A stretch of DNA of 64,000 nt from Promethearchaeota archaeon (GTDB lineage: Archaea > Asgardarchaeota > Lokiarchaeia > Sigyniarchaeales > SOKP01). The notes under the pieces are model-generated. The model was given only the letters and a program-made list of their open reading frames with translations. It was not told the origin of the DNA and did not search any database. Shown here piece after piece: positions 5,325 through 5,600 of the stretch (position 1 is the stretch's first letter; every line of letters starts with the position of its first letter). The stretch is taken from positions 386,184 to 450,183 of the forward strand of contig JAHPZA010000004.1 in the NCBI GenBank assembly GCA_019058445.1, in the 5' to 3' direction. Position numbers and translations under genes: made by a program.

Positions 5325-5357
5325 AAAATTTTTAAAAATAGTCATATAACTTAACGT

Positions 5358-5538
5358 TTCCGGGTTCCCGAACCATCCATAAATCAGATGATTTTTCGGA
5401 TGGGACCGGGTACTATCCTCGATAGCCATGACCGTAAGCAAACTTATGCTTGCGTTGCAATACACAACGCAATTTACAGTTTGATAGTTCCCACAGATTG
5501 CAACTGCAGTACTATTATCAACGCGTATCGAGTTTAAC
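5358..5538 (-). rRNA. rrf: 5S rRNA, circularly permuted and intron-containing: 3' half 5538-5474, linker 5473-5438, 5' half 5437-5395, intron 5394-5365, micro-exon 5364-5358
   Basis: The minus strand carries all 5S helices in swapped order: helix I UUACGGU/ACUGUAA; helix II GC-UAUCGAG/CUCGAUA-C-GC; helix III ACCCGG/CCGG-AA-GU; loop C UCCCAUCCGAAC after splicing; loop E UAGUA/GAA; helices UUGAUA/UAUCAA and CUGCAG/CUGUGG. Confidence 0.85.
5365..5394 (-). other. Predicted 30-nt BHB-type intron in 5S rRNA loop C
   Basis: UCCG-AAA-AAUCAUCU(GAUUUAU)GGAUGGUU-CGGG-AAC: 4-bp central helix, two 3-nt bulges, 8-bp intron stem. Removal restores the conserved CCGAAC. Confidence 0.7.
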
Positions 5539-5600
5539 CTTCGGCGTTATGCGAAATGCTTTGTTATATGATTATATTATAAAAAAGAAAAATTATGAAG

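What the first reader, a model, noticed from the sequence alone, without database searches (positions are those of the whole stretch)
5358..5400. 30-nt BHB-type intron in 5S rRNA loop C, leaving a 7-nt micro-exon
Seen: loop C is interrupted by UCCG-AAA-[AAUCAUCU GAUUUAU GGAUGGUU]-CGGG-AAC, a 4-bp helix with 3-nt bulges and an 8-bp intron stem. The exon-side helix is relaxed. Inference: canonical cleavage removes 5394-5365 and restores UCCCAUCCGAAC, including the conserved CCGAAC motif. The remaining exon before the terminal splice site is only CCCGGAA, so two cut-and-ligate events would occur 7 nt apart. Established: archaeal BHB introns are known in tRNA, 16S/23S rRNA and cbf5 mRNA. I am not aware of one in 5S rRNA.
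Basis: partly seen in the sequence, partly recalled or inferred. Interest (0 to 1): 0.85.

Follow-up and report, generated by a model that had tools for sequence, protein, structure and literature searches.

The report
Mini-intron in Asgard 5S rRNA
The only 5S ribosomal RNA gene of this Asgard archaeon is written back-to-front and also carries a 30-base insert shaped like a tRNA-type (protein-spliced) intron. Comparison with relatives says the insert is cut out, which would be the first intron described in a 5S rRNA, but no RNA data yet show the splice.

Summary
On the minus strand, 5394-5365 is a 30-nt insert in loop C of a circularly permuted 5S rRNA gene, the only 5S in this 4.6-Mb Promethearchaeota (Asgard) genome. 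It folds as UCCG/CGGG (4 bp), bulges AAA and AAC, and an 8-bp hairpin.

Cutting after the second bulge base restores CCCAUCCGAACCCGGAA. That is the exact sequence of insert-free congeners and of canonical 5S genes.

The same insert sits at the same site in 20 of 77 unique permuted Asgard 5S genes. Its stem covaries and its CGGGAA end never changes. Inserts of 29-31 nt at other 5S sites follow the same cutting rule: 25 of 31 pass, against 0.3% of control offsets.

Two 30-nt inserts of the same build interrupt a Sir2 and a ChlI-like gene in this genome, and removing them restores the reading frames. Congeners encode an alpha/beta splicing endonuclease with the broad-specificity loop, and RtcB is present.

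Not shown: no RNA from an insert-bearing organism was available, and the catalytic EndA subunit is missing from this assembly.

This scan had already noted permuted and intron-bearing 5S genes on other Asgard DNA. I found no published report.

Verdict: probable relaxed (HBh') BHB intron, confidence about 0.78.

The parts
5539..5570 (-). Leader of the permuted 5S precursor. It holds the outer stem strand CAUAUAAC (5570-5563), helix strand UAACG (5549-5545), the central-helix strand CCGA (5544-5541) and the first two bases of the bulge AGG (5540-5538). The cut falls before G5538.
   Evidence: Read directly. It pairs with the trailer (8 bp plus 5 bp). The same leader/trailer BHB, with CCGG/CCGG and AAG bulges, occurs in relatives.
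5472..5538 (-). The 3' part of 5S rRNA, encoded first: GUUAAAC..., the helix II 3' strand, helices IV/V and the helix I 3' strand.
   Evidence: The rebuilt 120-nt RNA aligns colinearly with canonical 5S genes of the sister family at 46-58% identity. Homologous loci were found in relatives.
5441..5471 (-). A hairpin insert of about 31 nt in the loop that caps helix I. Most relatives have a UUCG-type tetraloop here. Its boundaries are approximate.
   Evidence: gene cores are 120 nt with a tetraloop and 151 nt with this insert. No strict BHB was found here. It is not part of the intron and remains unexplained.
5395..5440 (-). The 5' part of 5S rRNA (exon 1), from the helix I 5' strand to loop C, ending ...CCCAUCCGAA. 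The last six bases hold the central-helix strand UCCG (5400-5397) and the first two bulge bases.
   Evidence: RNA contigs of relatives cover 5395-5446.
5365..5394 (-). The 30-nt BHB-type (HBh') mini-intron: third bulge base A5394, 8-bp stem (5393-5386 with 5378-5371), 7-nt loop (5385-5379), CGGG (5370-5367) pairing with the exon's UCCG, and AA (5366-5365).
   Evidence: It is absent from congeners that read the predicted product.
5358..5364 (-). The 7-nt micro-exon CCCGGAA. C5364 is the third base of the intron's 3' bulge. CCGG (5363-5360) is the helix III 3' strand and also the central helix of the terminal BHB.
   Evidence: The ligated form CCCGGAA|GUUAAAC is seen in RNA contigs of relatives and in canonical 5S genes.
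5342..5357 (-). Trailer: the third bulge base A5357, CGUUA (5356-5352) and GUUAUAUG (5350-5343), both pairing with the leader.
   Evidence: complementarity read directly.

Best explanation
The 30 nt at 5394-5365 (minus strand) are a protein-spliced archaeal intron of the relaxed bulge-helix-bulge type (HBh', also called bulge-helix-loop). They sit in loop C of a circularly permuted 5S rRNA gene.

In the precursor, the exon bases UCCG pair with the intron's CGGG. This 4-bp helix is flanked by the bulge AAA, followed by the 8-bp intron hairpin, and on the other strand by AAC. The splicing endonuclease EndA cuts after the second base of each bulge. RtcB then joins ...CAUCCGAA to CCCGGAA, restoring loop C.

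A second EndA/RtcB event acts at the leader/trailer BHB, 7 nt downstream. It joins CCCGGAA to GUUAAAC and gives a 5S in canonical order, probably as a ring.

Shown: the motif, its conservation and covariation, exact restoration of the consensus, the same rule at other sites and in protein genes of this genome, and the presence of the enzymes in the genus.

Inferred: the cleavage and ligation themselves, and their order.
For: 1. Motif and cut sites are present, and this is the best strict-BHB candidate in the precursor.

2. Insert-free alleles read the predicted product. Congeners G001, G003-G006 and G009 read CCCAUCCGAACCCGGAA. In all, 45 insert-free loci have loop-C sequences of this form, 16 of them exactly this sequence.

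3. The doubly processed string ACCCGGUCCCAUCCGAACCCGGAAGUUAAAC is identical over 31 nt to canonical 5S genes. Four of the seven matching contigs were run through Rfam and scored 86 bits for RF00001.

4. The same site carries a 30-nt insert (twice 31 nt) in 20 of 77 unique permuted Asgard 5S genes. In the 11 variants aligned, CGGGAA is invariant while the rest differs.

5. Covariation: 6 of 8 stem pairs change on both sides, 94.3% of cells are paired against at most 59% when the register is slid, and 0 of 500 shuffles reach the observed score.

6. Inserts of 29-31 nt at other 5S sites (helix IV, loop D, a second loop-C site) obey the same rule. 25 of 31 pass, against 9 of 2921 control offsets.

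7. Two 30-nt inserts in protein genes of this genome have the same build.
   - Sir2: AUGG/CCAU helix, AAA bulges, 8-bp stem, 7-nt loop and no outer helix. It splits the Pfam SIR2 profile at 105|106.
   - ChlI-like: removal restores MNPEEGELRPQ.

8. This is the only 5S 5' half in the genome, so the gene must work.

9. Enzymes. RtcB is present. Congeners have two EndA paralogues. The alpha-like one best matches the A. pernix alpha subunit and keeps the CSL KPR, the determinant of broad specificity (PMC3241643).
Against: - No RNA from G000 or from any insert-bearing relative was available, so excision has not been observed.
- The 3' splice site lies in a 3-by-5 internal loop with no adjacent exon helix. 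That is a relaxed substrate, and its cleavage by an Asgard EndA has never been tested.
- The central helix never varies, so it is supported by conservation only, not by covariation.
- In G000 only the non-catalytic, beta-like EndA paralogue was found (Tyr to Phe, His to Ser). The alpha gene is not in this 92.6%-complete assembly.
- Minimum-free-energy folds of the isolated 54-nt region prefer other pairings in G000 and some relatives.
- A second insert in the same gene (the helix I cap) is not BHB-shaped, so not every insert here need be an intron.
Confidence: 0.78

Rival explanations
1. Retained expansion segment. The 30-nt hairpin stays in the mature 5S and projects from loop C, as the large insertion in Halococcus 5S rRNA does (my own knowledge, not checked here).
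For: No RNA shows removal. The same gene has another hairpin insert of about 31 nt, in the helix I cap, that does not fit a BHB, so expansions may be tolerated. A conserved stem base would also explain the invariant CGGG.
Against: It does not explain several observations:
- Inserts at four or more different 5S sites all have one length and one cut rule that regenerates the consensus.
- The same module interrupts reading frames with stops in protein genes, where it cannot be retained.
- Loop C (CCGAAC) is split at a universally conserved motif.
- Presence is patchy among close relatives, with exact restoration in those that lack it.
Confidence: 0.12
2. Cut but not rejoined. EndA excises the 30 nt and the ends stay open, so a ring-shaped 5S (helix I capped) is re-linearised in loop C, or the 5S is fragmented.
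For: The permuted gene has no other obvious way to open a ring. Archaeal circular pre-rRNAs are re-opened in some species (PMC7758197, PMC12918454).
Against: RtcB, which joins EndA products, is present. Insert-free relatives have no such opening site, yet their RNA assembles into a closed 120-nt cycle. A break inside CCGAAC would disrupt a conserved loop.
Confidence: 0.06
3. Dead gene or assembly artefact. The insert marks a decaying pseudogene or a misassembly.
For: Rfam finds no 5S here. A truncated extra copy exists in congener G007.
Against: It is the only copy in the genome. The exons are conserved with compensatory changes. The same insert is present in many independently assembled genomes and in an independent run (X3 record 8).
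Confidence: 0.02

Closest known systems
Archaeal BHB introns at non-canonical positions of tRNA genes (relaxed HBh'/BHL motifs), cut by (alpha-beta)2 EndA carrying the Crenarchaea-specific loop (PMC3241643, PMC5829648)
   Same: A 4-bp central helix, 3-nt bulges cut after the second base, an intronic hairpin, one relaxed side, and an EndA plus RtcB mechanism. The genus encodes the same enzyme type with the KPR loop.
   Different: The host RNA is 5S rRNA, not tRNA. The length is fixed at 30 nt. The 3' site lies 7 nt from another splice site.
BHB introns in archaeal 16S/23S rRNA genes and the cbf5 pre-mRNA intron (PMC2738675; rRNA introns from my own knowledge)
   Same: Protein-spliced introns outside tRNA, with patchy gain and loss among relatives.
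   Different: Those rRNA introns are usually much longer and often carry homing-endonuclease ORFs. None is reported in 5S in the papers searched.
Permuted and intron-bearing tRNA genes of Cyanidioschyzon merolae and permuted tRNAs of Thermofilum (PMC3978253, PMC3728597, PMC3218864); permuted SRP RNA of Thermoproteus (cited in PMC7758197)
   Same: The gene halves are swapped, a terminal BHB is cut and joined through a circular RNA, and some genes combine permutation with an internal intron.
   Different: There the circle is re-opened to give a linear RNA with normal ends. Here helix I is capped by a loop, so the product may stay circular. The host is 5S rRNA.
[quoted passage not shown]
   Same: The same phylum, many introns per gene, non-canonical sites, repeated gains, and BHB motifs at the boundaries.
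   Different: Those papers treat tRNA only. rRNA and mRNA are not mentioned.

Membership tests
Archaeal BHB (protein-spliced) intron | Two 3-nt bulges on opposite strands, separated by a 4-bp helix | tested here: met
   UCCG/CGGG with AAA and AAC. It is 100% paired in 11 variants.
Archaeal BHB (protein-spliced) intron | Flanking helices on both sides (strict hBHBh') | tested here: not met
   The intron-side helix is present (8 bp, covarying). The exon-side helix next to the AAC bulge is absent. The nearest pairing is helix III, across a 5-nt stretch. This is therefore the relaxed HBh'/BHL form, not the strict form.
Archaeal BHB (protein-spliced) intron | Cutting at the symmetric bulge positions gives a functional, conserved exon junction | tested here: met
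   The product equals the insert-free alleles and canonical 5S genes over 31 nt.
Archaeal BHB (protein-spliced) intron | Presence/absence polymorphism among relatives at an exact site | tested here: met
   Present in 20 of 77 unique genes. Within the genus it is present in G000 and G007 and absent in G001, G003-G006 and G009.
Archaeal BHB (protein-spliced) intron | A splicing endonuclease able to cut relaxed motifs, and the RtcB ligase, encoded by the organism | tested here: inconclusive
   RtcB is present. G000 has only the beta-like EndA paralogue. Congeners have alpha (Tyr/His/Lys and the KPR loop) plus beta. The assembly is 92.6% complete.
Archaeal BHB (protein-spliced) intron | The insert is absent from the mature RNA, and the excised intron is detectable | not testable with these tools
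   The runs available held only RNA of insert-free relatives.
rRNA expansion segment | The insert is retained in mature, ribosome-bound RNA | not testable with these tools
   No RNA of an insert-bearing species was available.
5S rRNA (RF00001) | A match to the covariance model in gene order | tested here: not met
   No hit in the window or the genome. After rebuilding (permutation undone, insert removed), the 120 nt align colinearly with canonical 5S genes. The tools could not score a rebuilt sequence with the model.

The most novel reading that the evidence does not exclude
The insert may be one copy of a uniform class of 30-nt mini-introns (4-bp helix, two 3-nt bulges, 23-nt hairpin). In Asgard archaea this class would colonise at least four sites of 5S rRNA and also protein-coding genes. 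This organism's only 5S would then be made by ordered EndA/RtcB reactions, an internal splice and a terminal circularisation 7 nt apart, giving a covalently closed ribosomal RNA. EndA-type splicing would be a genome-wide layer of gene expression in the closest relatives of eukaryotes.
Probability: 0.45. Interest if true: 0.88.

Novelty: new variant of a known kind. Interest (0 to 1): 0.72.

Why it matters
5S rRNA is the one ribosomal RNA for which no intron has been described, in the papers I could search. Recent work states that archaeal 16S and 23S, but not 5S, pass through EndA-dependent circularisation (PMC12918454).

Here the only 5S gene of an Asgard archaeon can give a normal 5S sequence only after two tRNA-type cut-and-join events, 7 nt apart.

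- It explains why annotation finds no 5S in these genomes.
- It widens the substrate range of the archaeal splicing machinery to 5S rRNA.
- Together with the 30-nt introns in protein genes of the same genome, it suggests that EndA splicing is far more pervasive in the closest relatives of eukaryotes than tRNA studies imply.
- A 7-nt exon between two splice sites also poses a concrete mechanistic question about the order of processing.

Tried and rejected
- Rfam: no 5S hit at gathering or E<=10 in the window, and none in the genome. Permutation plus insert defeat the model.

- RNA evidence for the splice: the only runs offered held contigs 85-95% like the window. These match insert-free relatives. 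Nothing covers 5365-5394 in the RNA runs, so they say nothing about retention or removal in G000. The run of unknown kind (X3) holds the insert colinearly and is probably DNA.

- Metagenome scan for the spliced-and-ligated string: it found only canonical 5S genes of unrelated, GC-richer archaea, and no Asgard RNA-derived contig.

- Genome-wide ORF-restoration scan for BHB-shaped 27-33-nt inserts: 41 restoring sites against 50 at random positions, so no enrichment. The background is dominated by gene junctions. Only individual cases (Sir2, ChlI-like) were then verified by hand.

- Helix I cap insert as a third BHB intron: no strict BHB in G000 or in L015, so it was left unexplained.

- The insert as a repeated DNA element: there is no second copy in the genome.

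- Catalytic EndA alpha in G000: not found with Pfam PF01974/PF02778 or by tblastn with a congener's alpha.

- Isolated-region MFE folds do not consistently return the BHB. They were not used as support.

Full report
**Observation**

The minus strand of 5411-5342 reads ACCCGGUCCCA-UCCG-AAA-AAUCAUCU-GAUUUAU-GGAUGGUU-CGGG-AAC-CCGGAA-ACGUUAAG.
- UCCG (5400-5397) pairs with CGGG (5370-5367).
- AAA (5396-5394) and AAC (5366-5364) are 3-nt bulges on opposite strands.
- AAUCAUCU/GGAUGGUU is an 8-bp stem with a 7-nt loop.

I ran a strict scan of the 251-nt precursor. It required a 4-bp central helix, 3-nt bulges and an inner hairpin. This site was the best candidate, with a predicted intron at 5394-5365 of 30 nt. 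No helix adjoins the AAC bulge on the exon side, so the motif is the relaxed HBh' (bulge-helix-loop) form.

**Context**

Rfam finds no 5S in the window or in the whole 4.6-Mb, 10-contig, 92.6%-complete genome. The reason is that the gene is circularly permuted. The order on the minus strand is:
- the 3' part (5538-5472, starting GUUAAAC),
- a cap of about 31 nt,
- the 5' part (5440-5395),
- the insert,
- CCCGGAA (5364-5358).

Leader and trailer pair (8 bp plus 5 bp) and present CCGA-AG|G opposite CCGG-AA|A. Cutting there and joining gives CCCGGAA|GUUAAAC.

With the permutation undone and the insert removed, the 120 nt align colinearly with canonical 5S genes of the sister family at 46-58% identity. 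They share the universal CGGUCAU, CCGAAC and GGGAA motifs.

The 31-nt string spanning both predicted junctions is identical to canonical 5S genes on seven unrelated metagenome contigs. The four of these run through Rfam scored 86 bits for RF00001.

Only one 5S 5' half exists in the genome.

A pattern for the 3' end of 5S joined to its 5' start by about 10 nt hit 97 stretches in 185,579 species genomes. Nearly all are Promethearchaeota, that is Asgard, and include Loki_b31 and Loki_b32. The organism is therefore an Asgard archaeon, and the permuted layout is the norm in its relatives.

**Presence and absence**

Among 77 unique permuted genes from those genomes, 20 carry an insert at exactly this loop-C site. 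It is 30 nt in 18 of them and 31 nt in two.

Insert-free genes read CCCAUCCGAACCCGGAA or close variants, which is the predicted product.

Within the genus, the insert is present in G000 and G007 and absent in G001, G003, G004, G005, G006 and G009.

On a single-gene RtcB tree, G000, G003 and G007 form a well-supported trio (100/99). G003, which lacks the insert, tends to group with G000, but that node is weak (85/71). The insert was therefore either lost precisely in G003 or gained in a different topology. Either way it turns over among close relatives while the exon junction stays exact.

**Structure**

In an alignment of the 11 distinct loop-C variants known at that stage (A1), the insert sequences differ widely, but CGGGAA at the 3' end is invariant.

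Counting pairs:
- The central helix is 100% paired but never varies, so it is supported by conservation only.
- The intron stem has 6 of 8 pairs with changes on both sides and is 88.6% paired.
- Overall, 94.3% of cells pair, against at most 59% when the 3' partners are slid.
- No shuffle of 500 reaches the observed covariation.

The constraints are those expected of an EndA substrate: the helix with the exon, the bulge bases and a hairpin, with free loop and stem sequences.

**The same rule elsewhere**

Relatives carry other inserts of 29-31 nt in 5S:
- in helix IV (central helix CUGC/GCAG),
- in loop D (UUGC/GCGA or UUGC/GUAG),
- at a second loop-C site (UCCC/GGGA).

The strict rule is a 4/4 central helix, a hairpin, and a cut after the second bulge base that reproduces the alignment gap. 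25 of 31 inserts pass, against 9 of 2921 control offsets in the same genes (0.3%).

In this genome I verified two 30-nt inserts in protein genes.
- One splits a Sir2 gene between Pfam SIR2 profile positions 105 and 106. It has AUGG/CCAU, AAA/AAA bulges, an 8-bp stem, a 7-nt loop and no outer helix, which is the same geometry as the 5S insert.
- One splits a ChlI-like AAA gene. Its removal restores MNPEEGELRPQ.

In these two genes retention is impossible, because the inserts carry stops or break the frame.

**Enzymes**

RtcB is present.

The one EndA gene found in G000 (202 aa) has lost the catalytic Tyr and His, so it is the beta-type subunit.

All congeners searched have at least one EndA gene, and most have two paralogues. 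The second best matches the A. pernix alpha subunit (E 4e-36). It keeps Tyr/His/Lys and aligns without gaps through the Crenarchaea-specific loop, including KPR. That loop, and its lysine in particular, confers cleavage of relaxed motifs (PMC3241643). Asgard EndA was predicted to be of this type (PMC5829648).

The alpha gene is not in the G000 assembly. I take this as a gap, but it is not shown.

**RNA**

Two metatranscriptome studies hold contigs of insert-free relatives. In RNA sense these run from the 5' part through CCGAACCCGGAAGUUAAAC into the 3' part, and from the 3' part through a UUCG-type loop into the 5' part.

Their gene-encoded parts match, letter for letter, loci whose DNA is permuted.

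One 150-nt contig repeats at least its first 20 letters at positions 121-140, with the following bases consistent with the same repeat. This is what a closed 120-nt cycle in a 31-mer graph would give.

This supports ligation at the terminal BHB in relatives. It says nothing about the 30-nt insert, because no RNA of an insert-bearing organism was available.

**Rivals**

- A retained expansion hairpin (0.12) remains possible because removal is unseen, and because the helix I cap insert in the same gene is not BHB-shaped. It does not explain one length and one cut rule at several sites, nor the same module in reading frames.
- Excision without rejoining (0.06) and a dead gene or artefact (0.02) fit the data poorly.

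**Known and new**

Full-text searches found no paper on an intron in, or a permuted or circular form of, archaeal 5S rRNA. A 2026 paper states that 5S is not processed through circularisation. Permuted 5S molecules are known only from organelles (PMC4267664).

Asgard tRNA genes are known to be heavily interrupted (PMC11291895; bioRxiv 10.64898/2026.10.13.758758), but those studies do not mention rRNA or mRNA.

Within this scan, permuted 5S genes were already noted in at least 36 Asgard genomes. Intron-bearing ones were noted on other DNA, always with the splice unproven.

The mechanism is a known one. The host RNA, the fixed 30-nt build and the 7-nt micro-exon next to a circularising splice are new.

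Noticed in passing
window 5342-5570 (-): The whole 5S gene is circularly permuted and lies between a leader/trailer BHB. RNA contigs of relatives from two studies contain both the ligated junction and the loop-capped helix I. One of them is a 150-nt contig that repeats its first 20 or more letters from position 121, as expected of a 120-nt ring.
   Followed up: partly
window 5441-5471 (-): A hairpin insert of about 31 nt in the loop capping helix I. It is shared by position and partly by sequence with G004, G006 and G009, and replaced by a UUCG-type tetraloop in G003, G007 and most Asgard genomes. It does not fit a strict BHB, and whether it is retained or removed is unknown.
   Followed up: partly
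L035, L037, L040, L042, L044 and others; L011, L025: A second permutation type. The gene starts at CCAUCCGAACCCGGAAGUUAAAC and ends at ACCCGGUC, so the break point lies 17 nt upstream, in loop C (26 of 90 loci). L010, from another family, has yet another break point.
   Followed up: partly
L085, L101, L112 (helix IV); L035, L041, L046, L077, L089, L036, L087 (loop D); L084 (loop C): Further BHB-rule inserts of 29-31 nt at other sites of relatives' 5S genes. L036 carries two (181-nt core). The L084 insert contains a duplicate of the upstream exon sequence.
   Followed up: partly
G000:C9:775863-775892 (-) = L138 864-893; G000:C9:269043-269072 (-) = L139 544-573: 30-nt BHB inserts interrupt a Sir2-family gene and a ChlI-like AAA gene. 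Removing them restores the frame and conserved motifs.
   Followed up: yes
G000 whole genome: ARAGORN finds only 23 tRNA-like genes in 4.6 Mb. Most have predicted introns, often at odd positions, which fits heavily interrupted tRNA genes that escape standard tools.
   Followed up: no
G000:C9:770313-770918 (+) = L033 1219-1827: The only EndA gene in the assembly is the non-catalytic paralogue (Tyr to Phe, His to Ser). The catalytic paralogue present in most congeners was not found.
   Followed up: partly
L014 2350-2420: Congener G007 has a truncated second 5S fragment (end of the 3' part, a tetraloop, and the 5' part up to ACCCGGAC) about 700 nt downstream of its intron-bearing gene. It is probably a dead copy.
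   Followed up: no
L162, L163, L165 (RtcB of G005, G001, G021): The RtcB match starts only at residue 103 of the query in three relatives. The N-terminal part may be separated by an insert or lost at a contig edge.
   Followed up: no
window 5371-5378 versus 5397-5402 (-): In G000 and G007 the intron's GGAUGG is fully complementary to the exon's CCAUCC in loop C, and the intron's 5' stem resembles the exon (CAUCUGA against CAUCCGA). This gives an alternative pairing, or hints that the insert arose from a local duplication. It is not conserved in all variants.
   Followed up: no
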